DNA of 64,000 bases from the NCBI GenBank assembly GCA_965205855.1, contig OZ242184.1, positions 886,570 through 950,569 of the forward strand. The letters run 5' to 3'. Below, one piece after another: positions 2,705 to 61,240 of the stretch (positions within the stretch are counted from its first letter, which is position 1; every line of letters begins with the position of its first letter). The notes below the pieces were generated by a model. That model had not been told where the DNA came from. It ran no database searches and saw only the letters and a list, made by a program, of their open reading frames with translations. The position numbers were made by a program, and so were the translations under genes. The stretch is from Thermodesulfobacteriota bacterium (GTDB lineage: Bacteria > Desulfobacterota_D > UBA1144 > Nemesobacterales > Mycalebacteriaceae).

Positions 2705-3414
2705 CAAACCGCAATATAAAAAGCTGCGAGGCTTTGGTTATAAAAAAAACTCCGCTCGGCGAATCCGATATCGCGGTTGTGTTTTTCACAAAAGAGTTCG
2801 GCAAGCTCAGAGCGACGGCAAAGAATGCGGTTTCGAGCAGAAAAAGATTCGGCGGTCGGCTTGAACTTTTCACCCGTCTGAAAATTGAACTGAGAAAGAC
2901 CCTCGCGGGTACGACAACGCTGGAAAGCGCGGAATTGATAAAGAGTTTTGAAGATGTGGTAAAAGACATGAGAATCTTTCTCAAGGCAAACTGCATTGTT
3001 GAGTTTATAGACGCGGCACTACCGGAAAACGAAGAGCCGTGTGAAATAATGTTCACTGAAGCGCTGAAAGCCTTTTCATCAATGGAAAAAGGAGACGGGA
3101 TTGCGGCGATGATAAAATTCCAAATGGTCTCTCTTGAAACCCTCGGATACGGAGCGGATTTGTCGCGTTGTGGCGAGTGCGAAAGAAATGATTTCGCACG
3201 TGGGTCGCTGGTTTTTTCGACCGGTCTTTTCCTGTGCGACGAGTGCGGACGCAAAGAGGTAGCAAAGCCCGCGAAGAAAATCATGCGCGCAAACGCCCTC
3301 GTAGAAGACGAAGACGCGTTTGAAACCATCAACTGCCTGAACGCTTTCTTTCAATATCAGACGGGAAAAATATTGAAATCCGCGAAAGTTCTGGAGAGTA
3401 TGTTGCTGATATGA
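2701..3414 (+). CDS. recO: DNA repair protein RecO
   Basis: 237 aa. N-terminal OB-fold-like region (ALVIKKTPLGESD) and C4 zinc motif CGECE...CDECG. TTG start overlaps the mgtE stop. Confidence 0.8.
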   Translation: MTNRNIKSCEALVIKKTPLGESDIAVVFFTKEFGKLRATAKNAVSSRKRFGGRLELFTRLKIELRKTLAGTTTLESAELIKSFEDVVKDMRIFLKANCIVEFIDAALPENEEPCEIMFTEALKAFSSMEKGDGIAAMIKFQMVSLETLGYGADLSRCGECERNDFARGSLVFSTGLFLCDECGRKEVAKPAKKIMRANALVEDEDAFETINCLNAFFQYQTGKILKSAKVLESMLLI

Positions 3415-42788: not shown

Positions 42789-43547
42789 TCAATTATGCCA
42801 CAAAAAGGGATGGAGTGTCAAACTATACGGCGACCGCCTGATAGTCGGGGAGTTCACCCATTGTTTTCCCTCAAGAGCGCGTCCCGTCTTCTTTTTGTTC
42901 ACACCGCCCCATTGTTTGAAGAAAAACGGAACCCCGCTTTCAACGCAGTTGTCCCTGATTTCCGTAACCCATTCCTCTTTCATCGGTCTTGCGCCGGGGC
43001 CGGACTCTCCACCGACAATGACCCAGTCTATGCCTGACAAATTGAGGTTTGGAAACGGGGCAAGCAACGGTTCAAGAGAAAGAAACTTCACGCAAGCATC
43101 GGTCTGTTTTAAAACTTCTGTACGGGAAAGATATTTCTCGGACTCTACGCTTGTTCCCATCCAGATGTTGGAAGTCCAGTGCAGGTGTTTGTTCGCCTTC
43201 ACAACCCTTTCCGGTCTTTTTGTGAGAACCTGAAAAGTGTGTTGAGATGCTTCGTTCATAACTTCAAAAACGGACATAATGAATTTTGCGGGAACATCCT
43301 TGTGGAACAAATCGCTCATTGAATTGACAAAAACTATTTTCGGTTTTTTCCATTTAAGCGGGTCTTTCAAAGTGTGTTCATGAGTGGTGAGTTTGAAACC
43401 GTTTCTGTATTTCTCCATCCCTTGAGCGTGAAGCCGCTTTGCCATCCGCTCGGCGTAGCAGTATTTGCAACCGTGGCTGATTTTTGAACAACCGGTAATG
43501 GGGTTCCATGTTGTGTGAGTCCATCCTATTTTGGAGGGTTGGGTCAT
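42789..43547 (-). CDS. DUF5131 / phage Gp37-Gp68 family protein (Cys-cluster, radical-SAM-like)
   Basis: 252 aa. N-terminal [27 protein letters not shown] signature as I recall for Pfam PF07505. Its start overlaps the res stop (TAATG). Confidence 0.75.
42792..42821 (-). promoter_or_regulatory. candidate rplU-rpmA promoter embedded in the last codons of the upstream DUF5131 gene
   Basis: On the minus strand, TTGACA-18 nt-CATAAT. The -10 hexamer spans the final His-Asn codons (CAT AAT), directly before the TGA stop of the DUF5131 ORF. A GGAG Shine-Dalgarno and the rplU ATG follow within about 30 nt. Confidence 0.45.
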
Positions 43548-46090
43548 TACTGTTTGTTGATAACACCGTTTATATCGTCCCGCCAGCTGTCTTCAAACAT
43601 CATCCTGAAAGTAGCGGGCGTCTTATTGATGGCCATTTCGCCTCTGTCAAGGGCGATCCTGTATGTTTTTTCAAGCGTGTCGAGCAATTTTTTCTTGTAA
43701 CTCGTATCTTCGCTGCCTTTCAGGTGGATGCCCTTTGTTTCCAGAATTAGCAGTTTTCCGTTATCTTTTCGGCAGGCCACAAAATCGGGATACACGCGCT
43801 GGCGTCGCCAGCCTTGCAGATAGTACGCTTGTCTTGCAGCTATTCTGTGCCACCAGTAGATGGCGTTGCTCTTATCCAGATAAAGCGCAAAATCCCGCTC
43901 CAGACCGTTAAAACTACTTTCATAAACAGGTTCAAAAAGGTTTTGCTGTATAGGTCTGCCATGTTCGCTCTGTAATGATCTTTCTTGACTGGAAACAAAA
44001 ACCTCGAACGACTTGCTCAATTCGTAGTCCAGTCGCTGGTCGGTCTCAAGGTGAAACCGAATCACATTCCGCCCAACCTTTTCCCGAAACACCGCTTCGG
44101 CCTCGTCGTCTATGGCCTTGTTCACGCGGCGGCTCAATTCTTCGGAAAGGTAAATTCGGTTATTCAACAATTTGCTTTCATCGTGTTTCCTGTTTTTATG
44201 TGTTTGAATAAACCCCTCCGCCATGCGCGCCGCCTGCCACGGATTGGGCACCTTGTCCACAAGCCGCCGAACAAAATAATCCACGCTCAGCCGCTTTTCG
44301 CTGTCAGGGATTTGTTCCGAAGCCTTAACCTGCCCTTGAATGTCCACCGTGGTTTTGATCTCCTGAGTGATGTCTCTATCATCCAGATTCACCGCTGCGC
44401 CCGCGTCAATGGTGTCCCAATCAATCGCGCTTAATATATCGCGGTCGTAATCAATGGGGCGCCAGGTGCGCCCCGCTTTGTGTAACACCTGCGGGAGAAA
44501 AATTTTCAATGGCCGGTATTTACCACGACGTTTGACGGTGGTCGGTTTCGGTGCATCGCCCTCGCCATGCCCGTGAACAAAATCGCCAAGCCCGGTCAGC
44601 CCTTCATTCTCCAGGCCGGCCTTCACGCCTTTGATCGCCTTGCCTACGACCTGATTATAGCAATAGATATAACACTGGTTCAGCGCATCGCCTTGTGCGA
44701 TTCTGCGTGCATGGGGTTGCCGCATCACCCGACCGACCATTTGCGTGATGGCGGTGGTTGCGGTGGTGTTATCCAGCAAGGCAAGCAGATATGCAAACGA
44801 GCAATCCCAGCCTTCTTTCAGCGCGTCTTTGGTGATAATCCAGCGCACCTCGCTTGTCTCGCTCAACAAATCCTCACCCGCAAGTTCCTTGCGTTCCGAT
44901 GATTGAATCCTGATGTGATTCTCCGGCACAGCAAGATTTTGTATCAGGTATTCGCGCGCATCCTCCGAATGAATTTTTCCTTGCCCTCTTTGTTTTGCGC
45001 CCGTTCTTTCCACCCTGACCAAAGCGATGGGTCGGATATGGCGGTTTTCCTGTTCCTGTAATTTTTGCGCCGCACTTTCAAGCTCATCCAGTTTTTCCTG
45101 TGTTTTGGCAAGCGTGTGTTCCCAGTCGGAATTGCTGAAACTGTGAATCTCTATCGGCAGTTTGATCATCTCCTCGTCCTGGAGGTCGCGGCCCGATGTG
45201 TTGACCAGGATATTGCTGATGCCGATTTTCGGCGTGGCGGACAGTTCAAGCACAAAACGGGGGTTGAGCCGGTTGACGGATTTGACAAACTCCTGGTTGT
45301 TTTGATTATTCGGTCCATATGCTTTATGCGCTTCGTCCAAAATCACCGTGGGACGAATCAGTTTCAGCACATTGATCAGGCTTTGCTTAACCCAGTCGCC
45401 GGGTGCATTTTTCTCCAGGTCGGGATGGTGTTCCGAAAGCGTTGCATTGGCCGCCGCGTCATCCTGCTCGGGAAAAAACGACATATACCCGCTGCTGTCG
45501 CGGAATATTTTGAGAAACTCCCTGTTCTTTTGCCGGTTGGCGGAGGGTAGCATCAGCAGCATAATGCAAAGATAGTTTTCGGTATCCTGTCGGGTAAAGC
45601 GGTCGGTTTTTTGCAACAATTTGACCCTGCCGCCAGACATATGTTCGAGCATCTGCCGGTAGGTATGTTCGCGGGTGTGGAACGCCTGGCGGGTCTGCTC
45701 GTAGATCGCCCGGGTCGGCACAATCCACAACACAAAGCCGGTATCCCGCTTGATCCGCTCAAGCGTGGCCACGCCCAACAGCGTCTTGCCGCCGCCGGTC
45801 GGCACCTTCAGGCAAACATGCGGGATGGGTTCGCCGGATGCCGCAGTGCGGGAAATGTAGCCGGGAACTGCCATGTCACCGTCTTGGGAAATGCCGGGGA
45901 GGATATTTTGATCTTTCAGCGCCTTCCAAGCTAAGAGGGGATAGTTTTGCAGTTCTTCAGGAATATCAATCCCCGACTCTTCAAGAGCTTTGCCCGCCTT
46001 TTCACTAGTCAGCCGCGCTTCCTTGAGCGCGTCCAGCCAGCGGTCTAACTGTTCAAGAGCTTGTTGCTGATAGTTTTTCAGGGAGAGCAT
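43547..46090 (-). CDS. res: Type III restriction enzyme Res subunit (SF2 helicase plus C-terminal nuclease)
   Basis: Helicase motif I VPTGGGKT, motif [10 protein letters not shown], motif [12 protein letters not shown], and a C-terminal PD-ExK-like YPDF...LILETKG. The ATG at 46090 ([13 protein letters not shown]) is preferred because the tracked start at 46225 overlaps orf185. Confidence 0.85.
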
Positions 46091-46091
46091 A

Positions 46092-46649
46092 TCACGGATT
46101 TTTTGAGTCAGTACTGTCTGAATTATTTGGCAAATTGATGATTTCAACAGGCACATTCCTTTTACCAACTGCAAGACCGACAGCGTAGTTACGGATAATA
46201 GTTTGATCCATTTCCATATCCGCATAGCCTTGTGGATAGTACGAACCCCTTAGAATTTCCATCTGTTCTACCTTAAAATCTAGCACCTTGGCCATTGAGC
46301 TAAGCATCTCCGTGAGCAATTCCATTTGCTCCTTGCCGAGTCGTTCATAGTGCGAACGAGAATCATTTTCTTCGTTAGGCCTCTTAGCATGCGTTTCACC
46401 ATAATGCTTGCGGAGTGCTGCCCATTTTTCTATAACTTCTTTATGCTTAACAAATTCTATCTCAACCAGATTAATGGCTCCGACATAATCAGGTGATAAA
46501 CGCGCATTTCGTGTACGCATTAACGTCTTGAATATATCCATTTTTCGCGCCTTTTGTTCGCGCCATCTGTCAAGAAGACCGTTAACCCAGACAGCTGCGC
46601 AAGGACCGATTAAGATGGCTGCAATGGTGATGATAGAATATGAATTCAT
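46092..46649 (-). CDS. hypothetical membrane-anchored protein (185 aa) between mod and res
   Basis: N-terminal TM helix SIITIAAILIGPCAAVWV, then a charged helical region. Visibly AT-richer than the flanking mod and res sequence. Start lies 2 nt after the mod stop, and its stop lies 1 nt before the res ATG. Confidence 0.6.
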   Translation of the reverse strand: MNSYSIITIAAILIGPCAAVWVNGLLDRWREQKARKMDIFKTLMRTRNARLSPDYVGAINLVEIEFVKHKEVIEKWAALRKHYGETHAKRPNEENDSRSHYERLGKEQMELLTEMLSSMAKVLDFKVEQMEILRGSYYPQGYADMEMDQTIIRNYAVGLAVGKRNVPVEIINLPNNSDSTDSKNP

Positions 46650-46651
46650 GT

Positions 46652-48115
46652 TTATCTTATACCCTCATATGGTAATTGGGCAAAAGTTATCCCCATCTCG
46701 GTTAATGCTTTTTGTCCCATGAATTTGTGAGTGGCGAACACCACCGCGGTTTTCTTTTTTGCCTTGGCCTGTTTGGCGATGCGTTCGGCGCGGGTGCTGT
46801 TCAAAGCGGAATCCGCACTGCGCAGAAAATCAAGGTTCGGCTCGTAGATCAGGTAAAACATTTTGTCACCTGCTTCATAAAATAAACCGTCTTTGCCACG
46901 CCTTGTTTTCGGGTTGAGTTTATGCGGCGATTGTCCGCTTGCGGTATAGATCAGATGGCGGGCAAAGGTTTCATAGCCCGGCAGGTTCCTGCCGGTGAGC
47001 ATTTTTTCAATGCTGATTTCATCGCCCAGTGTGCAATAGGCAAAACTGCCGCCCAGTCCGTTTTTTAGGTTCTCATCCTTTGCTTTTGGTATGCCCTTTA
47101 TCACACGGCGAACGCGCTCGGCGGTGATTTTGTCGGCGTAGTCTTCGCATTCCACCAAGATAAATTTGCGGTTGCCGCCGTCTTCCTTGTTCAGCGCAAG
47201 CACGGCGTGGGCAGTGGTGCCGGAACCGGCGAAGGAGTCGAGGATAATGGCGTTTTTTGTCGTTGCCAGTTGTAAAATCTTTTTCACAAGGGAAATTGGT
47301 TTGGGGTTTTGGAACTGATTAGAACCAAACACCGTCCTCAACTCGATTGTGCCGTTGGTTGTTGTACCTACATCATCCCACCAAGTGCTAGGCGTTAACC
47401 CCCTTCGGCGTGCCTCTGACAAAAAACGTTTGCGCTGAGGTCTGGAACTATTTCTCTTTCCGAATACGATTCTATTGTCTGCAAGAAGCTCCTCAAATTT
47501 GTTCAAATCGTTTTTCCAGCAATTACCTTCAGTGGGGTAAAATATTTCTTTTGTTTTAGGGTTTCTTATCGGATACATCTGATTAGGTCGAACCCCACCA
47601 GCCTCAAATGGATCCGCCTTCCATGGGCCTCTCGGATCATTATCAGGATTTTTGAATCCTTCTAAAATGGCAGGAAGTTTGAAATCTTTTCTAATGGTTT
47701 TTAATACATTCAGTTGTTTAGCATAAGCTATATTATGAGTGTGTGATATTGATACTAATGCAGGATTTGTAATTGATTTTGTGCTATGCCACACAAAATC
47801 TGCAACAAAATTCTCCTCCCCAAAAATCTCATCCATGACCATCCGCAGGCGGTGCTGTTCATTGTCGTCGATGGAAATAAAAATTACGCCATCTTCGGCC
47901 AGCAATTCTCTTAACAACTGCAATCTTGGCCACATCATGCACAGCCATTTGTCGTGCCGCTCCAGGTCTTCGCCATCCACCGGACTTTTGCCTTTCAGCC
48001 ACGCCTTCATCATCGGGCTGTTGACATTGTCGTTATAGACCCATTTCTCATTGCCGGTGTTGTAGGGCGGGTCGATGTAAATGCAGTTGACGCGGCTGGC
48101 ATAGCGCGGCAGCAA
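46652..48115 (-). CDS. mod: Type III-like DNA methyltransferase Mod (beta-class N6/N4), main frame downstream of a frameshift
   Basis: Motif IV IDPPYNTG precedes motif I DSFAGSGTT. The frame stays open upstream of the tracked TTG start up to the stop at 48203..48205 (..SFSEKWGGNPSLDDNLIIHGDNLHALKA). The N-terminal 37 codons lie in another frame (next feature). Confidence 0.85.
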   Translation of the reverse strand: MLPRYASRVNCIYIDPPYNTGNEKWVYNDNVNSPMMKAWLKGKSPVDGEDLERHDKWLCMMWPRLQLLRELLAEDGVIFISIDDNEQHRLRMVMDEIFGEENFVADFVWHSTKSITNPALVSISHTHNIAYAKQLNVLKTIRKDFKLPAILEGFKNPDNDPRGPWKADPFEAGGVRPNQMYPIRNPKTKEIFYPTEGNCWKNDLNKFEELLADNRIVFGKRNSSRPQRKRFLSEARRRGLTPSTWWDDVGTTTNGTIELRTVFGSNQFQNPKPISLVKKILQLATTKNAIILDSFAGSGTTAHAVLALNKEDGGNRKFILVECEDYADKITAERVRRVIKGIPKAKDENLKNGLGGSFAYCTLGDEISIEKMLTGRNLPGYETFARHLIYTASGQSPHKLNPKTRRGKDGLFYEAGDKMFYLIYEPNLDFLRSADSALNSTRAERIAKQAKAKKKTAVVFATHKFMGQKALTEMGITFAQLPYEGIR

Positions 48116-48150
48116 CGCCTTGAGCGCGTGCAGATTGTCGCCGTGGATAA

Positions 48151-48291
48151 TCAGATTGTCATCAAGGGAAGGGTTACCCCCCCATTTTTCGCTGAAAGAG
48201 ATTTTTTAGTGTCTATCTCAAGTGTCCTGGACGGAACAGTCAGGTGGTGCGCATAAATGAGTTGCTTCCCTTTGAAATCAATTGTCGGCAT
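48151..48291 (-). pseudogene. mod: 5' segment of mod in a different frame, separated from the main frame at a G7 tract
   Basis: The ATG at 48291 opens MPTIDFKGKQLIYAHHLTVPSRTLEIDTKKSLSAKN followed by the G7 run (plus-strand C7 at 48177..48183). As written, the frame ends at the TGA at 48151. One extra G joins it to the Mod main frame. Confidence 0.7.
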
Positions 48292-48448
48292 TGAAAACCC
48301 CGTAAATCAGTTTGATATTGGCTTTGAAGATACCCGATTTACTCCCCCAACCTAAACCCCTCAACCTCCCGATGCACCGCCCCTTCCCGTCTCAATTCAC
48401 TCTCCATCAAACAAACTCTTTCAGAAGCAAAACCAAGTTCAAACTGCG
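48285..48448 (-). repeat. direct repeat copy A: thpR(ligT) 3'-end fragment, downstream spacer and first 7 nt of mod
   Basis: Identical base-for-base, by manual alignment, to 51106..51269. Its inner end is truncated by the IS1380-family remnant. Confidence 0.9.
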
Positions 48449-48768
48449 CCCGCGGTGACATGGAGAACCGGATCAAGGATCAGCAGTTGGATTTGTTTGC
48501 GGATCGCACCTCTTGTCACCGCTGGTGGCCCAACCAGTGCCGGCAGTTGCTGTCAGGGTTGGCTTACACGTTGATTGAGGGATTGCGGCGCCTTGCACTA
48601 CAGGGCACCGAACTGGCCAAAGCCAGTCCTCACAGGATCAGGCTGACACTGCTTAAAATCGGTGCCGTGATCATCCGCAACACGCGCCGCATCCGCCTAC
48701 TGATGAGCAGTGCTTATCCCCATCAGGCGTTGTTCCGCACGGCAGCCTATCGGCTCAACTCCCCATAA
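48449..48768 (+). mobile_element. IS1380-family transposase C-terminal remnant (pseudogene)
   Basis: Encodes only ..ARGDMENRIKDQQLDLFADRTSCHRWWPNQCRQLLSGLAYTL..., which resembles the conserved C-terminal block of IS1380 DDE transposases. About 340 N-terminal residues are absent. Confidence 0.65.
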
Positions 48769-48959
48769 ACCCAACCCAGTGCTGCCCCGGCATGTTGATA
48801 AACAATGGGGGTAGGGGGAGTTGCGCCCGAAATCTGTGAACAACGAAAGAATTGATCAAAGAACAGGCAACTGCATCATATGATGCATCGACAGGGATGG
48901 CGCTACCGAAAAATCGACCACCACCGCTTCACTCATGAAATATCCGGGATAGTCTCGCT

Positions 48960-50099
48960 TTATTTTCGGATGAGAAACAGAAATTCTTTATTCGGATCGC
49001 TGGATTCCCGCAACCACTCATTTGTCCATTTCATGGCGGCCATCACATTTTTTTTATACTCAATTTTTGCGCTATCCACAATTTCTCCGTTACGCGTTAT
49101 CACCTCGTTTAATTCCTCCGCGGTTGCTCGTCCACCGGAACTGTAAGAGAGCAAGATCCATCGGCAAGGAGTTTCCTTCAGCAAACGCTCTATGGCTTCC
49201 ACCACAACCAATCGTCCTGATTTGCTTCTACGAAATTCCTCGAACACTGAAGTCGCCACTTTATCGGATGTGTCTTTTCTGCGGAGGGACTTGCCAAATA
49301 GCACGGGATGATCATTTTTACATATGGTCGTCCACAAATGATAATATGAAGCGTACCGAACCCTTGAAGGTGGCATTTTTTCATTGTTTGACCCATACGG
49401 AGGATCAAAATAAGCAAGATCGGCGTCCGCTTCGGGAAGTACCTTAAAAACATCACCACACAGCACCGTGTTTTCGATTTCATTTTTCCACAACCGTGGC
49501 ACTTTCAATTGTAAATTTTTGAATGAACGCGGCGACCAATCTTTTAAATAAGAAACAAAATGACCAAGAGTACTGTCTATCTCATTCAACCCTAAAATCA
49601 GGCTTGTCAATGCCACACTTTTGGAAACGTCATCCAGCATCAAGGCATCGATCTCTCTCCTGATTGCATCAAGTTTTCTTGTATTTTTTTTCTGCCAAGG
49701 CTTTTTGGTTCCATCCTTCTGAATAGCATTATGGCAAGTTCCAGAGCGAACATCACCACCGTAATTCTCAGTAAACCATCCGTCTTCCGGAGGAAGCGAA
49801 TTTAAATGATCAATAAGAGGTTGGTATATTTTCGGGTTTTTTAAGTTTTTCAAATAGCACGTGGCAAAAATTCTTGACCATTCGGAAATATCATTTGATA
49901 CCACGCGATATCCTGCTTGTGCAAAAGATTGACTTACTCTGGTGGAGCCTGAAAAACCGTCAAAAATGCTTTTTGCTCCGGTCTGTTTTGACAGATTAAA
50001 AATATGTGGAAGCAGTTTCAGTTTTGAGCCTGCGTAATTGATGCCTTCGGTTTTTGGAACATCAATCCAATCACGAAAAATTTGAACTTGCCCTTGCAT
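48960..50099 (-). CDS. adenine-specific DNA methyltransferase, alpha-class (Dam / D12-like)
   Basis: 379 aa. NYAGSKLKLL, motif I FDGFSGS, motif IV FDPPYG, and a C-terminus ending in EFLFLIRK typical of D12-class enzymes. Confidence 0.8.
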   Translation of the reverse strand: MQGQVQIFRDWIDVPKTEGINYAGSKLKLLPHIFNLSKQTGAKSIFDGFSGSTRVSQSFAQAGYRVVSNDISEWSRIFATCYLKNLKNPKIYQPLIDHLNSLPPEDGWFTENYGGDVRSGTCHNAIQKDGTKKPWQKKNTRKLDAIRREIDALMLDDVSKSVALTSLILGLNEIDSTLGHFVSYLKDWSPRSFKNLQLKVPRLWKNEIENTVLCGDVFKVLPEADADLAYFDPPYGSNNEKMPPSRVRYASYYHLWTTICKNDHPVLFGKSLRRKDTSDKVATSVFEEFRRSKSGRLVVVEAIERLLKETPCRWILLSYSSGGRATAEELNEVITRNGEIVDSAKIEYKKNVMAAMKWTNEWLRESSDPNKEFLFLIRK

Positions 50100-50776
50100 T
50101 ATGTAACTTTAAAGCGGGAAGCCTGCTTGAGTCTAACAATATCATCTTTCACTTTTGCAAGAGCCTCATTCTGGCCGAAATCAGAAGAAACAAGCGCGTG
50201 AGAAAATAGTTGGACCAAGATAGGATTGTGAGAATAATCAACCCATCCATTGGTTATGCTATCAAAATAGTTTAAACCACTTTTTGTATGAGTCCAAAGC
50301 CCTCGCTGGAGGGCATTGGCGGTTGCGCTTCCATAACGCACCTCGCAAATATAAGAATCGCTTGCATCGTAGAAACGATATACTGGGTGCTTTCTACCTT
50401 TCTTTTTTGTTTCTTTTACTATTTTCACCGTTTCAGTTTCAGCGCGGTGGTAATCGAAGACAAGAATATTACACTGTCGATTTTTTTCGTCATAAATTAA
50501 TGGCAAAACATTTACATTGTAAAAATCCGAGAAAGCGGGGTCGGCAAGCACTCGTTGTACATTTTTCTTGCCCACTATTTCATCCCCCTCTTGTGCCAAT
50601 CTCGGAAACATTTTGAAATTCTTGTCGGTTGAAAGTTGAAGGGGACCATCACCATACGCTTTGATGCTAACAGGAAATTCAGCTTCGGTTACTTCATTTA
50701 TTATTTTGATGTCTTCTTCCCGAGATTTGGCTCTGTATAAATCTTTGCCAACATGGATCGAGCGAAAATCATACAT
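50099..50776 (-). CDS. hypothetical protein, candidate Type II restriction endonuclease partner of the Dam-like methylase
   Basis: 225 aa. Its stop overlaps the methylase start. Possible PD-ExK-like element (FYDASDSYICEVRYG). No family recognised. Confidence 0.4.
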   Translation of the reverse strand: MYDFRSIHVGKDLYRAKSREEDIKIINEVTEAEFPVSIKAYGDGPLQLSTDKNFKMFPRLAQEGDEIVGKKNVQRVLADPAFSDFYNVNVLPLIYDEKNRQCNILVFDYHRAETETVKIVKETKKKGRKHPVYRFYDASDSYICEVRYGSATANALQRGLWTHTKSGLNYFDSITNGWVDYSHNPILVQLFSHALVSSDFGQNEALAKVKDDIVRLKQASRFKVT

Positions 50777-51105: not shown

Positions 51106-51335
51106 TCGGCATTGAAAACCCCGTAAATCAGTTTGATATTGGCTTTGAAGATACCCGATTTACTCCCCCAACCTAAACCCCTCAACCTCCCGATGCACCG
51201 CCCCTTCCCGTCTCAATTCACTCTCCATCAAACAAACTCTTTCAGAAGCAAAACCAAGTTCAAACTGCGGCAATTCGGGTAGCTTCATCCTTTTTTTTAT
51301 CCACCCTATCGTAACGTGCGACATAAAATCCCGTT
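51106..51335 (-). repeat. direct repeat copy B: longer thpR(ligT) 3'-end fragment, spacer and first 7 nt of mod (ATGCCGA)
   Basis: 51106..51269 is identical to copy A. 51129..51335 aligns without gaps to the intact thpR 3' end (52052..52258) with about 18 mismatches by manual count. It keeps an open frame (..SHVTIGWIKKRMKLPELPQFELGFASERVCLMESELRREGAVHREVEGFRLGE*). Confidence 0.85.
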
Positions 51336-51905: not shown

Positions 51906-52052
51906 TTAAACTAAGCAGAGTTTCAAGATATTTTCCGGCATCGGCGGCGTTTTGAGCGCTGCATAAGCAAGTCTCGGTATTAACTCGCACAAATCAAAGC
52001 GACGATTGAAACGATACTGAAATTCTGACAAATAACGCTGTGCGTATTTTTC
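51906..52052 (-). mobile_element. IS1595-family transposase C-terminal remnant (pseudogene)
   Basis: The minus strand encodes EKYAQRYLSEFQYRFNRRFDLCELIPRLAYAALKTPPMPENILKLCLV*. The YL.EF.YRFNRR block is the conserved C-terminal signature of ISXO2-like/IS1595 transposases. It abuts repeat copy C directly. Confidence 0.65.
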
Positions 52053-52258
52053 AGTTTGATATTGGCTTTGAAAATACCCGATTTACTCCCCCAACCTAAA
52101 ACCCTCAACCTCCCGATGCACCGCCCCTTCTCGTCTCAATTCACTCTCCATCAAACAAACCCTGTCAGAAACAAACTCAAGTTTAAACTGCGGCAATTCG
52201 GGCAGTTTTATCCTTTTTCTTATCCGCCCTATCGTAATGTGTGGTATAAAATCCCGTT
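52052..52258 (-). repeat. direct repeat copy C: 3' end of the intact thpR gene plus 31 nt downstream
   Basis: Homologous to copy B over 207 nt (about 91% identity by manual count) and to copy A over its shorter extent. Confidence 0.85.
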
Positions 52259-52664
52259 TCTCCGGCTCAAAACCGATTGTCTCAAGTTTTGAGTCAATCT
52301 CGTCCTTGAGACTGAAAAACGCGTCCCCGGATTCCGCAATCACCGCAAGCGTCTGCGTATAACGGCGGAGTATAAGCGCCTCAACCCCGTCCGTTGTGAT
52401 GTCGAGCGGCACAAACCGCTTGCAACAACTTTCAATAACCCCGCACAGTTCGGGAATCAATTCGCGGCGCGTCTCTCCGAGAAACCTTAAAGTAATATGG
52501 AATTTTTCAGACAGCTCCCAACGCACATGGCGGAGCGAGCGTATTGCGGCGGAACGGGATTTTATCACCCTTTTTGCTTTTTCGGGAACTTCAAGAGAAA
52601 TAAAAAGCCGGACGGTAGCGCTGTCAACTCTCAAGCTCAACATTCCAGTATGAGGCATCAACAA
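52083..52664 (-). CDS. thpR: RNA 2',3'-cyclic phosphodiesterase ThpR (LigT, 2H phosphoesterase)
   Basis: Two H-x-T-x motifs (HITLRFLG and HITIGR). The true start may be the ATG at 52643, which overlaps the HNH gene stop by 20 nt. Confidence 0.8.
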   Translation of the reverse strand: MLMPHTGMLSLRVDSATVRLFISLEVPEKAKRVIKSRSAAIRSLRHVRWELSEKFHITLRFLGETRRELIPELCGVIESCCKRFVPLDITTDGVEALILRRYTQTLAVIAESGDAFFSLKDEIDSKLETIGFEPEKRDFIPHITIGRIRKRIKLPELPQFKLEFVSDRVCLMESELRREGAVHREVEGFRLGE

Positions 52665-59437: not shown

Positions 59438-61240
59438 TTACTTTCTCTTGAACATCTTCTCAAGACTGCCGTAAGTAATTCTTACCGCGACCGGCCTGCC
59501 GTGCGGACAGAAATGGGGAGACTCGCATTTGTCCATATCGGAGAAAAAAGTATTTAACTCCTCCTCCGCCGTTATGTATCCGGCACGGATGGACCGGTGA
59601 CACGCCATTGTGGCGAGAATGTGCTCGGTTTTTTCGTCAAGCTTGTTGGAAAGTTCCGGACAGTCGGCCTCTTTCAGTTCGGTAAAAATATCGATAAATA
59701 GGTTTCTACCACTTACGCACGGCAAAATGGCGGGAAGCGCACCAAGTCTGATGGCATCTTCTCCAAACGCTTCTGCGCCAAACCCTATTCTGCTCATTTT
59801 CGGTTCAATCTCCGCAAACAGGATGATATCTTCGGGACGCATCTCTATAATCTCCGGTATGAGAAGCCTCTGAGCCTTCAAGCCGCCGTCGTTGAGGTAA
59901 CTGTTTTTAAGCCGCTCAAAATTGACTCTCTCGTGCGCTGCATGTTGGTCAATCAGCACAAGTCCCTCTTTTGACTCACAGATAATGTAAAGCCCTGCTA
60001 CCAGCCCGATACGGTTAAGTTGGGAGAAAAAACCCCTCTCCGCAGGGGAAGAGATTCCTTGCGGATTGCCGGTTCGCGGTGGCTCCTCCAAAGCTGTGAA
60101 ATCCAAATCGGGGGCTTTGTTTACCGGTGGCTTTCCGTAAACCTGAGCACCGATAGACTGCCGTGCCGCGCGGGAGCCGGAACCGTACCGTTCGGATTCG
60201 GGGGTCTCTCTCATCGGAGATGTTTGCCGGGGAGCGGACGGTTCCGGATAACCGGTAATCCACGGAGCGGATGAAAGGAAAGCCTCCACCGCCGCGCGAA
60301 CTGACGCGGCAACCGCGGCGGGAGACTTGAAACGAACCTCGTGTTTTGTGGGATGCACATTGACATCAACCTCCTCCGACGACAGGTTGATAAAAAGCGC
60401 CCCTTGCGGATAACGCCCCCTTTCAAATGTGCGCCCGAAGGCGCCTATCACAACCTTGTTGACAAACCTGTCCCGCACATACCTGCCGTTAACATAGCAG
60501 TAAAAATGCGTCATTGAGGAAAATCCGTCCAAAGGGGAACAGAGAAATCCCTTTATTTCAACTGCGCCGCCCGTGGCTTCAATCTCATACGGCTTTATCT
60601 TTCCGAGCACATCCCCGACTCTGCGCTCAAGGTCGCCCGGAGAAAAACTGAAAATGCTTTTGCCGTTGTGCAGAACCTCAAAGCCAACTTCGGGATTTGC
60701 CAGCGCGATGGAACGGATAACTCCGGCGCACCTTGAAAGCTCGGTTTCATTTGTTTTCAGAAATTTGAGACGCGGACGCGTGTTGAAGAAAAGAGAGCGC
60801 GCCTCAACGGTTGTTCCTGCGGGACAGCCCGTGTCCTTCACACCGCCTGATCTTCCGCCCTCCACAACTATAAGGGTTCCGGTGTCGCAATCGCGCGGGC
60901 GTGTCTCAAGAGAGAATCTGGACACAGCGGCAATGGAGGCAAGCGCCTCTCCCCTGAACCCAAAGGTGGACACAGAGGCAAGCTCCTTTTCGTTCTTTAT
61001 CTTGCTTGTGGTATGCCGTTCAACGCTCAACACAGCATCTTCGCGCGACATTCCGCAACCGTCATCGGCAACCCTTACAAGGCGTTTTCCACCCGAATCA
61101 AGCTCAACCGAAATCCTTTTCGCTCCCGCATCAACGGAGTTCTCAAGAAACTCTTTGAGAACCGACGCGGGTCTTTCAATTACTTCTCCGGCAGATATTT
61201 TGGAAATAAGGATATCGTCAAGTTTTTGAATGTGGTTCAT
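59438..61240 (-). CDS. mutL: DNA mismatch repair protein MutL
   Basis: 600 aa. GHKL ATPase N-terminus (AGEVIERPASVLKEFLENSVDA, DDGCGM, GFRGEAL). The C-terminal endonuclease-type motif DQHAAHERV suggests a nicking MutL. Confidence 0.9.
   Translation of the reverse strand: MNHIQKLDDILISKISAGEVIERPASVLKEFLENSVDAGAKRISVELDSGGKRLVRVADDGCGMSREDAVLSVERHTTSKIKNEKELASVSTFGFRGEALASIAAVSRFSLETRPRDCDTGTLIVVEGGRSGGVKDTGCPAGTTVEARSLFFNTRPRLKFLKTNETELSRCAGVIRSIALANPEVGFEVLHNGKSIFSFSPGDLERRVGDVLGKIKPYEIEATGGAVEIKGFLCSPLDGFSSMTHFYCYVNGRYVRDRFVNKVVIGAFGRTFERGRYPQGALFINLSSEEVDVNVHPTKHEVRFKSPAAVAASVRAAVEAFLSSAPWITGYPEPSAPRQTSPMRETPESERYGSGSRAARQSIGAQVYGKPPVNKAPDLDFTALEEPPRTGNPQGISSPAERGFFSQLNRIGLVAGLYIICESKEGLVLIDQHAAHERVNFERLKNSYLNDGGLKAQRLLIPEIIEMRPEDIILFAEIEPKMSRIGFGAEAFGEDAIRLGALPAILPCVSGRNLFIDIFTELKEADCPELSNKLDEKTEHILATMACHRSIRAGYITAEEELNTFFSDMDKCESPHFCPHGRPVAVRITYGSLEKMFKRK

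What the first reader, a model, noticed from the sequence alone, without database searches (positions are those of the whole stretch)
48151..48291. mod is split by a frameshift exactly at a G7 homopolymer: phase-variable (phasevarion-like) switch, decay or assembly error
Reading the minus strand from the ATG at 48291 gives an open 37-codon frame (MPTIDFKGKQLIYAHHLTVPSRTLEIDTKKSLSAKN). This frame runs into a run of seven G (plus-strand C7, 48177..48183) and stops 9 codons after the run (TGA at 48151..48153). The Mod main frame (..KWGGNPSLDDNLIIHGDNLHALKALLPRYASRVNCIYIDPPYNTG) is open from just upstream of the same tract. Adding one G (G8) or removing two (G5) joins the two frames into one ORF of about 546 aa. 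With G7, only a truncated Mod could be made, from an internal TTG with no good Shine-Dalgarno. Homopolymer or short-repeat tracts near the 5' end of Type III mod genes are the established mechanism of phase-variable regulons in Haemophilus, Neisseria and Helicobacter. Because res and the two extra genes lie downstream in the same operon, the tract could switch the whole system on and off.
Basis: partly seen in the sequence, partly recalled or inferred. Interest (0 to 1): 0.75.

Follow-up and report, generated by a model that had tools for sequence, protein, structure and literature searches.

The report
Repeat-tract off-switch in a Type III methylase
A DNA-methylase gene of a restriction-modification defence system is knocked out of frame by one base inside a run of seven G's, and related genes in other marine-invertebrate-associated bacteria carry runs of 9 to 34 G's or C's at the same spot, so this is most likely a known kind of reversible on/off switch caught in the off state.

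Summary
On the minus strand an ATG at 48291 opens 36 codons that run into G7 (48183..48177). That frame stops at TGA 48153..48151, and the Mod frame continues one base out of register. G8 or G5 would give a 546-aa protein.

The upstream codons are the real Mod N-terminus. About 110 of 120 homologues begin MPTLDFKGKxxxYAHHLTVPxRTL, and a Type III methylase profile aligns from residue 1.

Sixteen related alleles, counting the window's, carry a simple repeat at exactly this linker: G7, G9 (twice), G10, G11, G12, G24, C9, C11, C13, C14, C16, C18, C19, C34(AC)5 and a CA dinucleotide repeat. Three are in frame and 13 are out of frame. Close relatives of the window's allele (87-94% nucleotide identity) have G9, G11 and G24.

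None of 73 more distant homologues from other metagenomes has such a tract. The rest of the operon (DUF6680, res, DUF5131) is intact and tightly coupled.

This is a new member of the known class of repeat-controlled phase-variable Type III mod genes. The host is probably a sponge-associated Dadabacteria relative.

Caveats:
- G7 is below the strict 9-base cutoff, so switching may be slow.
- No G8 copy of this allele was found.
- Reads were not available, so a consensus error cannot be excluded.

The parts
48184..48291 (-). 5' coding segment of mod: ATG plus 35 codons for the conserved Mod N-terminus (MPTIDFKGKQLIYAHHLTVPSRTLEIDTKKSLSAKN)
   Evidence: The motif is conserved in about 110 of 120 homologues. 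The PADLOC MTase_III profile PDLC03644 aligns from residue 1.
48177..48183 (-). G7 homopolymer (C7 on the plus strand). This is the simple-repeat switch point; G8 or G5 would be the ON state.
   Evidence: Homologous tracts lie at the same linker position in 15 other alleles.
48151..48153 (-). Premature TGA that ends the N-terminal frame in the G7 state (46-aa product)
46652..48176 (-). Body of mod in the shifted frame (NPSLDDNLIIHGDNL.., DPPY at 48073..48062, FAGSGTT, C-terminal region). It has no further stops or frameshifts. The stop codon is at 46654..46652.
   Evidence: Pfam N6_N4_Mtase 7e-32. Solved Type III Mod proteins 6K0W and EcoP15I 4ZCF match. PADLOC MTase_III.
48113..48115 (-). Internal TTG, the only conventional start left in the Mod frame (487-aa product lacking the N-terminus and the IIHGDNL motif). 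Its AAGG is only 2 nt upstream.
   Evidence: It is the same as public gene call P0001.
46092..46649 (-). DUF6680 gene (185 aa) between mod and res. Its ATG lies 2 nt after the mod stop.
   Evidence: Pfam PF20385 6e-47; junction
43547..46090 (-). res (847 aa from ATG 46090), intact Type III restriction subunit. Its ATG lies 1 nt after the DUF6680 stop.
   Evidence: Pfam ResIII. PADLOC REase_III PDLC03653 aligns end to end, 6e-213. Junction.
42789..43547 (-). DUF5131 (Gp37/Gp68-like, 252 aa). Its start overlaps the res stop by 1 nt. It is the last gene of the operon.
   Evidence: Pfam PF07505 4e-98. PADLOC candidates PDC-M41B/M30B. Junction.
48307..48514 (.). Upstream boundary: a degenerate copy of the 3' end of thpR/ligT (one of three copies) lies directly upstream of mod
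   Evidence: the repeat finder family D1; sequence

Best explanation
Overall reading. The split gene is the mod subunit of an otherwise intact four-gene Type III restriction-modification operon (mod, DUF6680, res, DUF5131). Its reading frame is governed by a slippage-prone homopolymer. The tract lies in a length-tolerant linker between a conserved N-terminal motif and the methyltransferase core.

Mechanism (inferred). Slipped-strand mispairing during replication adds or removes G's. G8 (or G5, G11..) gives full-length 546-aa Mod, which is ON. G7 terminates translation after 46 codons, which is OFF.

Consequences of OFF (inferred). Type III Res needs Mod for target recognition. The downstream genes are translationally coupled behind about 1.5 kb of untranslated mod mRNA. 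OFF therefore probably silences methylation and restriction together.

State of this copy. The window shows the OFF state with the shortest tract seen in the family, so reversion (G7 to G8) is expected to be slow, all the more because an intact mutL is present.

Shown: the frame geometry, the homology of the N-terminus, the recurrence and length variation of repeats at this site in relatives, and the integrity of the rest of the operon.

Inferred: the slippage mechanism in this organism, reversibility, polarity on res, and any effect on gene expression.
For: 1. Geometry of the break at the tract.
2. The N-terminal 36 codons match the family-wide motif, and the Type III MTase profile aligns from position 1.
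3. Close relatives of the same allele differ in tract length:
   - L002, G9, 92-93% nt identity at both gene ends.
   - L005, Halieaceae MAG, G11, 94% nt identity over mod and res.
   - L030, Ca. Spongiihabitans MAG, G24, 87-92% nt identity.
4. Other alleles carry different repeats at the same linker: C9, C11, C13, C14, C16, C18, C19, C34(AC)5, G9, G10, G12 and a CA repeat. G12 (L004) comes from a Logan assembly of a public sequencing run and C11 (L167) from a separate metagenome scaffold set, so the tracts are not confined to one assembly project.
5. The chance of a G/C run of 9 or more in a 60-nt linker is about 3e-4.
6. Repeats occur in 7 of 75 species-representative loci, against 0 of 73 more distant homologues from other metagenomes. 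Fisher P = 0.014.
7. Both phases occur: 3 ON and 13 OFF among 16 alleles, which fits random phase (expected one third ON; binomial P = 0.14 for 2 ON of 13, about 0.17 by hand for the final 3 of 16).
8. In every OFF allele the N-terminal segment stays open and conserved. Across all pairs of alleles, 1157 codon differences are synonymous and 909 non-synonymous. This points to continued use rather than decay.
9. The window's mod body, res and accessory genes have no other lesions.
10. Forty-six of the window's 62 homopolymers of 7 or more bases lie well inside long open frames, including the other three C7 runs. This argues against systematic homopolymer miscalling.
11. Alleles are mosaic, with conserved 5' and 3' ends and a divergent central target-recognition region, as in known phase-variable mod families.
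12. The mechanism is established for Type III mod genes: 17.4% of those in REBASE carry repeats (PMC5909438).
Against: - G7 is below the 9-base mononucleotide cutoff of PMC5909438.
- PMC6321876 notes that tracts near its 7-base cutoff may mutate at less than 1e-5.
- An intact mutL (59438..61240) suggests mismatch repair that would stabilise short tracts further.
- All four alleles of the G-tract clade are out of frame as assembled. No G8 version of this allele was found in the protein database or in the metagenome scans.
- L002 carries an additional 1-base insertion in the N-terminal segment, so some copies may be decaying.
- Many of the relatives appear, from contig and record naming only, to be long-read metagenome consensus assemblies, in which the exact length of long homopolymers would be uncertain.
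- No read-level data were available.
Confidence: 0.68

Rival explanations
1. Locked-off remnant. The family is repeat-prone, but in this genome the tract has contracted to G7 and the system is effectively a fixed pseudogene on its way to decay, with no meaningful switching.
For: It is the shortest tract of 16 alleles and falls below the 9-base criterion (PMC5909438). mutL is present. All close relatives are also out of frame. L002 has a second frameshift. L069 has a frameshift with only G5.
Against: There is no other lesion in mod, DUF6680, res or DUF5131. The N-terminal segment still has its ATG, an open frame and the conserved motif. A single +1 event restores the gene. In C. jejuni, G7-to-G8 insertions were measurable (PMC3401435).
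Confidence: 0.17
2. Consensus or assembly error. The true tract is G8 and the gene is simply intact, or the population is mixed and the assembler chose G7.
For: Homopolymer length is the main residual error of long-read consensus assemblies (general knowledge). The related contigs carry long-read-style names with coverage tags, which is an inference from naming only. A one-base undercall would produce exactly this picture.
Against: The other three C7 runs, and 46 of 62 runs of 7 or more bases, lie in uninterrupted open frames. No other split gene was seen among the window's ORFs of 100 aa or more between 30 and 64 kb. Out-of-frame tracts also occur in a Logan assembly of a public sequencing run and in a separate metagenome scaffold set (L004 G12, L167 C11). 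Even if it is an error, a mixed population would itself be phase variation.
Confidence: 0.11
3. Recoding. Full-length Mod is made from the G7 template by -1 ribosomal frameshifting or by RNA-polymerase slippage on the G run, so the gene is constitutively expressed at a low level.
For: A GGG codon in the P site could re-pair one base back (G GGG). Transcriptional slippage is known on long homopolymers, so it may contribute in the G11-C34 alleles (general knowledge).
Against: There is no X XXY YYZ heptamer in frame. The downstream RNA folds no better than shuffled sequence (z = 0.30). The correction needed differs between relatives: +1 base in the window, L005 and the first mod of L001, and -1 base in L030, L003 and L004. 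That does not fit a conserved recoding signal. G7 is short for RNA-polymerase slippage.
Confidence: 0.04

Closest known systems
Helicobacter pylori modH/modJ/modL and Campylobacter upsaliensis modU: Type III mod genes with a mononucleotide G[n] tract (PMC5909438)
   Same: They have a poly-G tract inside the mod reading frame, so length changes switch translation on and off. They also exist as multiple alleles that differ in the central target-recognition region between conserved ends.
   Different: The window's protein belongs to a different Mod lineage, with the N-terminus MPTLDFKGK.. and about 65% identity to Nitrospira, Poribacteria and similar homologues. The tract here is only 7 long. The hosts are uncultured symbiont-type bacteria, not epsilonproteobacterial pathogens. 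Here res is intact and two extra genes are coupled in the operon.
Haemophilus influenzae / Neisseria modA phasevarions (tetranucleotide AGCC/AGTC repeats; PMC5909438, PMC4525171)
   Same: The repeat lies in the 5' part of a Type III mod gene. Expression switches ON and OFF by slipped-strand mispairing. The allelic recognition domains vary.
   Different: The repeat unit differs (4 nt against 1 nt). Those systems have a demonstrated regulon effect, and none is tested here.
Mycoplasma mycoides MmyCI mod with (AG)12 (PMC3498834)
   Same: A dinucleotide repeat in a Type III mod causes premature termination. The relative L084 has a CA repeat at the linker.
   Different: The window itself has a homopolymer, not a dinucleotide repeat.
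EcoP15I (solved structure 4ZCF), the archetypal non-phase-variable Type III system
   Same: The Mod core aligns (residues 43-195 and 238-385, E = 2.6e-47). The mod-then-res gene order is the same.
   Different: By sequence search the N-terminal 42 residues do not align to EcoP15I Mod. The window's operon also has the extra DUF6680 and DUF5131 genes.

Membership tests
Type III restriction-modification system | Mod subunit: N6-adenine methyltransferase with DPPY and FxGxG motifs of the Type III Mod lineage | tested here: met
   Pfam N6_N4_Mtase 7e-32. PADLOC MTase_III PDLC03644, residues 1-543 against profile positions 1-538 of 542, 7e-152. Best solved relatives are Type III Mod proteins 6K0W and 4ZCF. 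DPPY and FAGSGTT are visible.
Type III restriction-modification system | Res subunit with helicase-type ATPase, encoded downstream of mod in one operon | tested here: met
   Pfam ResIII. PADLOC REase_III PDLC03653 aligns end to end, 6e-213. Same strand, with junctions of 2 nt, 1 nt and a 1-nt overlap.
Type III restriction-modification system | Enzymatic behaviour: hemimethylation of an asymmetric site, ATP-dependent cleavage | not testable with these tools
   Needs biochemistry or methylome data.
Repeat-mediated phase-variable mod gene (phasevarion type) | Simple repeat inside the mod reading frame, so that changes in unit number alternate between in-frame and out-of-frame | tested here: met
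   G7 at 48183..48177. G8 or G5 restores 546 aa.
Repeat-mediated phase-variable mod gene (phasevarion type) | Tract long enough for high-rate switching: 9 or more for mononucleotides (criterion of PMC5909438) | tested here: not met
   The window has 7. The relatives have 9 to 34 and pass.
Repeat-mediated phase-variable mod gene (phasevarion type) | Tract of 7 or more G/C (PhasomeIt criterion, PMC6321876) | tested here: met
   G7. The paper itself warns that mutability near the cutoff may be below 1e-5.
Repeat-mediated phase-variable mod gene (phasevarion type) | Tract length differs between closely related copies of the same allele | tested here: met
   G7 in the window, G9 in L002, G11 in L005 and G24 in L030, with 87-94% identical flanks.
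Repeat-mediated phase-variable mod gene (phasevarion type) | Both ON and OFF lengths observed for the same allele or within one population | tested here: inconclusive
   All four G-clade copies are OFF. ON states were seen only in other alleles: C18 in L166, C19 in L001 and G9 in L073.
Repeat-mediated phase-variable mod gene (phasevarion type) | Switching changes genome methylation and the expression of a regulon | not testable with these tools
   Needs methylome and transcriptome data from ON and OFF variants.
Programmed ribosomal frameshift / transcriptional slippage gene | Conserved slippery motif, stimulatory element and one conserved shift direction | tested here: not met
   There is no X XXY YYZ heptamer in frame. 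The downstream fold has z = 0.30. The required shift differs among relatives.

The most novel reading that the evidence does not exclude
A single lineage of Type III mod-res cassettes, with a repeat-prone linker that has acquired poly-G, poly-C or CA repeats several times, circulates by horizontal transfer among distantly related bacteria of sponge and coral microbiomes. The lineages involved are a Dadabacteria-like host of the window, Halieaceae, Ca. Spongiihabitans, Nitrospirales and Dehalococcoidia. In situ the cassette sits mostly in the OFF phase. On this reading, stochastic switching of defence and methylation, so far studied mainly in animal pathogens, would be a community-wide trait of uncultured marine symbionts, and might trade phage defence against DNA exchange inside the host.
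Probability: 0.35. Interest if true: 0.62.

Novelty: new member of a known kind. Interest (0 to 1): 0.45.

Why it matters
If the switch is real, this symbiont population carries cells with and without an active Type III restriction system and its methylation pattern. That affects phage susceptibility, uptake of foreign DNA and possibly gene expression. It would also extend repeat-driven phase variation of methyltransferases, studied mainly in pathogens, to uncultured sponge-associated lineages.

Practical points:
- Annotation pipelines call these genes as truncated proteins of 483-526 aa (P0001, P0002, P0013, P0026, P0062), which hides intact switchable systems.
- Homopolymer length in metagenome consensus sequences should be read as a population majority, not as a fixed state.

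Tried and rejected
- A DNA pattern for the window's exact flanks with a variable tract found nothing in the JGI metagenome collection.
- The protein-guided scan of that collection returned only more distant homologues (67% identity or less), all without tracts. They served as a control, not as a source of G8 variants.
- Exact-protein look-ups for the window's own genes failed (P0001, DUF6680, the 46-aa N-terminal ORF). The source contig's sample, coverage and sister contigs could therefore not be retrieved.
- Sequence searches against solved structures did not align the first 42 residues. The N-terminus was validated with homologues and the PADLOC profile instead.
- The sigma-70 promoter scan gave no site between the thpR-derived repeat and the mod ATG. 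This is uninformative for this phylum.
- Ribosomal frameshifting was considered and rejected.
- L165 (C34) was tested as a possible within-sample length variant of the third mod of L001 (C19). It turned out to be a recombinant of paralogues, not the same locus.
- The ATG abutting the tract (48185..48183) would be in frame with Mod at G9 or G6, as in L002's gene call MGGGNPSL... It is absent from L005 and L030 (ATC instead), so I do not treat it as a designed second start.
- Literature searches for phase variation in sponge symbionts found nothing relevant in the held library.

Full report
**Observation**

Reading the minus strand, an ATG at 48291 is followed by 35 sense codons (MPTIDFKGKQLIYAHHLTVPSRTLEIDTKKSLSAKN). 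Then come seven G's at 48183..48177 (C7 on the plus strand). In this frame translation continues GGVTLPLMTI and stops at TGA 48153..48151.

The Mod frame (..EKWGGNPSLDDNLIIHGDNLHALKALLPRYASRVNCIYIDPPYNTG..) is offset by one base. It stays open to its stop at 46654..46652. One more G, or two fewer, joins the parts into 546 aa. The third frame reads ATG GGG GGG TAA. The only conventional start left in the Mod frame is TTG 48115 (487 aa), which is how public annotation calls the gene (P0001).

**Is it more than chance?**

A G/C run of 7 is unremarkable on its own. The window has four, against 6.2 +/- 2.5 in dinucleotide shuffles. The other three lie inside uninterrupted frames of 368, 869 (alaS) and 439 (hisD) codons. 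Of all 62 homopolymers of 7 or more bases, 46 lie deep inside long open frames, and none of the others marks a broken conserved gene. The notable feature is the coincidence of the only frame break with the tract. The comparative data below strengthen this.

**What the gene is**

The reconstructed protein matches Pfam N6_N4_Mtase. It matches the PADLOC Type III methyltransferase profile PDLC03644 over residues 1-543 against profile positions 1-538. It also matches the solved Type III Mod subunits 6K0W and EcoP15I 4ZCF from residue 43 onward.

Downstream on the same strand lie three more genes:
- a DUF6680 gene (46649..46092);
- res (46090..43547), which matches REase_III PDLC03653 end to end at 6e-213;
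- a DUF5131 / Gp37-Gp68-like gene (43547..42789).

The junctions are 2 nt, 1 nt and a 1-nt overlap. None of these genes is damaged. The cassette lies between rplU/alaS and a degenerate copy of the 3' end of thpR.

**The upstream codons are the real N-terminus**

Of the 120 best homologues, about 110 are 536-602 aa long. They begin with MPTLDFKGKxxxYAHHLTVPxRTLExDxxKS, then a variable linker, then DDNLIIHGDN. The window's 36 codons fit this motif almost residue for residue. The distance between the two motifs ranges from 108 to 164 nt among loci, so the linker tolerates insertions.

**Comparative evidence for a hypermutable site**

The homologues whose gene calls are truncated turned out to have repeats at exactly this linker:

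| Locus | Source | Tract | Phase |
|---|---|---|---|
| L002 | 2.43-Mb circular contig; flanks nearly identical to the window | G9 | OFF |
| L005 | Halieaceae MAG; 94% nt identity over mod and res | G11 | OFF |
| L030 | Ca. Spongiihabitans MAG; 87-92% nt identity | G24 | OFF |
| L001, first mod | metagenome contig | C13 | OFF |
| L001, third mod | same contig | C19 | ON |
| L003 | metagenome contig | C14 | OFF |
| L165 | metagenome contig | C34(AC)5 | OFF |
| L004 | Logan assembly of a public sequencing run | G12 | OFF |
| L023 | Nitrospirales MAG | G10 | OFF |
| L073 | Dehalococcoidia MAG | G9 | ON |
| L080 | Dehalococcoidia MAG | C16 | OFF |
| L081 | Dehalococcoidia MAG | C9 | OFF |
| L084 | Dehalococcoidia MAG | CA repeat | OFF |
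| L166 | metagenome contig; encodes PPPPPP | C18 | ON |
| L167 | separate metagenome scaffold set | C11 | OFF |

- The chance of a G/C run of 9 or more in a 60-nt stretch is about 3e-4.
- Among 75 species-representative loci that could be scored, 7 carry such repeats. Most of these loci come from MAGs with sponge-symbiont names such as Poribacteria, Poriferihabitaceae and Spongiihabitans.
- None of 73 more distant homologues from other metagenomes carries one, and all of those are in frame (Fisher P = 0.014).
- Counting the window, 16 repeat-bearing alleles split into 3 ON and 13 OFF. This fits a random phase with one third ON (binomial P = 0.14 for 2 ON of 13, about 0.17 by hand for the final 3 of 16). 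Part of this set was found through truncated gene calls, which biases it towards OFF.
- In every OFF allele the N-terminal segment keeps its start codon, open frame and motif. Summed over all pairs of alleles, 1157 codon differences are synonymous and 909 non-synonymous. The segment is therefore still under selection.
- The correction needed to restore the frame differs between alleles: +1 base in the window, L005 and the first mod of L001, and -1 base in L030, L003 and L004.

**Mechanism**

The best-supported explanation is the classical one. Slipped-strand mispairing in the tract changes its length, and translation of Mod alternates between full-length (G8) and a 46-aa stub (G7).

Type III Res depends on Mod (established knowledge of the family). 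The downstream genes are tightly coupled behind about 1.5 kb of untranslated mRNA. The OFF phase therefore probably silences the whole system. This step is inferred, not shown.

Two known features of phase-variable mod families are also present. Alleles are mosaic, with conserved 5' and 3' ends and a divergent central region: the window against L002 is 92-93% identical at 48294..47787 and at 47248..46666, and diverged in between. Several independently tract-bearing mod paralogues can also sit on one contig (L001).

**Caveats for this particular copy**

- G7 is the shortest tract in the set.
- It passes the PhasomeIt cutoff of 7 or more G/C. That paper notes that mutability near the cutoff may be below 1e-5 (PMC6321876).
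- It fails the 9-base cutoff of the REBASE survey of Type III mod genes (PMC5909438).
- In C. jejuni, switching rates rise about 10-fold from G8 to G11. That species lacks efficient mismatch repair (PMC3401435), whereas this window encodes an intact MutL.
- No G8 version of this allele was found.
- All four members of the G-tract clade are out of frame, and L002 has a second frameshift in the N-terminal segment.
- The window's contig is not in the contig index, so reads, coverage and sister assemblies could not be examined.

I therefore keep two rivals. One is an effectively locked-off remnant (0.17). The other is a one-base consensus error or a mixed population (0.11). Recoding by ribosomal or transcriptional slippage is unlikely (0.04), because there is no slippery heptamer, no downstream structure (z = 0.30) and no consistent shift direction.

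**Host and setting**

The window's AlaS is 71% identical to that of Ca. Mycalebacterium sp.. NCBI taxonomy places that genus in the class Candidatus Dadabacteria, phylum Thermodesulfobacteriota. The next named hits are Dadabacteria and Thermodesulfobacteriota at about 55%. The contig is 1.4 Mb.

The same cassette, at 92-94% nucleotide identity, occurs in Halieaceae and Ca. Spongiihabitans MAGs, which implies recent horizontal transfer. That the window's sample is a sponge is inferred from these relatives, not shown.

**Comparison with known systems and novelty**

Functionally this matches the poly-G Type III mod genes of H. pylori (modH, modJ, modL) and C. upsaliensis (modU). [quoted passage not shown] It is a different Mod lineage in a different kind of host, with an intact res and two accessory genes.

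I found no report of phase-variable methyltransferases in sponge symbionts in the held library. This is an absence of hits, not proof of novelty.

Verdict: a new member of a known kind. It is a real feature, of moderate interest. The family-level pattern, in which different repeat types arose at one linker across several phyla, is the most interesting part.

Noticed in passing
window 48307-48514, 51128-51335, 52051-52258: There are three direct copies (77-100% identity to the reference copy) of a stretch of about 208 nt that includes the 3' end of the thpR/ligT gene (52083..52664). The peptide LMESELRREGAVHREVEGFRLGE* is re-encoded just upstream of mod. This looks like serial insertion of cargo blocks at one attachment site, each regenerating the gene end.
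   Followed up: partly
window 48460-50776: Between the first two repeat copies lie a C-terminal fragment of a DDE_Tnp_1_4 transposase (48460..48768, plus strand) and a complete Type II restriction-modification pair. The pair is a D12-class methylase (48960..50099) and a 225-aa protein (50099..50776) that matches PADLOC REase_II at 1e-99. A second defence system therefore lies adjacent to the Type III operon.
   Followed up: partly
window 46092-46649 and 42789-43547: The Type III operon carries two tightly coupled extra genes. DUF6680 lies between mod and res. DUF5131 (Gp37/Gp68-like) lies after res; it hits NCBIfam 'radical SAM mobile pair protein A' far below that model's cutoff and matches PADLOC candidates PDC-M41B/M30B. 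The gene between mod and res differs in relatives: L002 has a Lipase_3 gene, L004 has none, and L005 has a 1.4-kb insert.
   Followed up: partly
window 47248-47787 versus L002 and L030: The mod alleles are mosaic. The 5' and 3' ends are 87-93% identical to L002 and L030, while the central part (presumed target-recognition domain) is too diverged to align at the DNA level. L005 is 94% identical throughout. This suggests swapping of the recognition domain between alleles.
   Followed up: partly
L001 9822-21452; L165 2798-2980: One 71-kb metagenome contig carries three mod paralogues. The first has C13 (OFF) and the third C19 (ON). The second, a 535-aa call, was not examined for a tract. A related contig from the same sample has C34 followed by (AC)5 and is a recombinant of these paralogues. 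Fic-domain genes lie next to them.
   Followed up: partly
L084 about 3110-3140: A Dehalococcoidia homologue has a CA dinucleotide repeat (about 11 units), instead of a homopolymer, at the same linker. It is also out of frame.
   Followed up: no
L002 9936-9946: The closest relative of the window's 5' mod segment has an extra C (CACCCACC against CACCACC) inside the conserved N-terminal codons. This is a second frameshift in addition to its G9 tract. It is either decay or a consensus error.
   Followed up: no
window 48183-48185: An ATG abuts the tract (AAAAATGGGGGGG). At G9 or G6 it would be in frame with Mod and give a protein lacking the N-terminal 36 residues, which is how L002's gene is called (MGGGNPSL..). 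It is not conserved in L005 or L030.
   Followed up: partly
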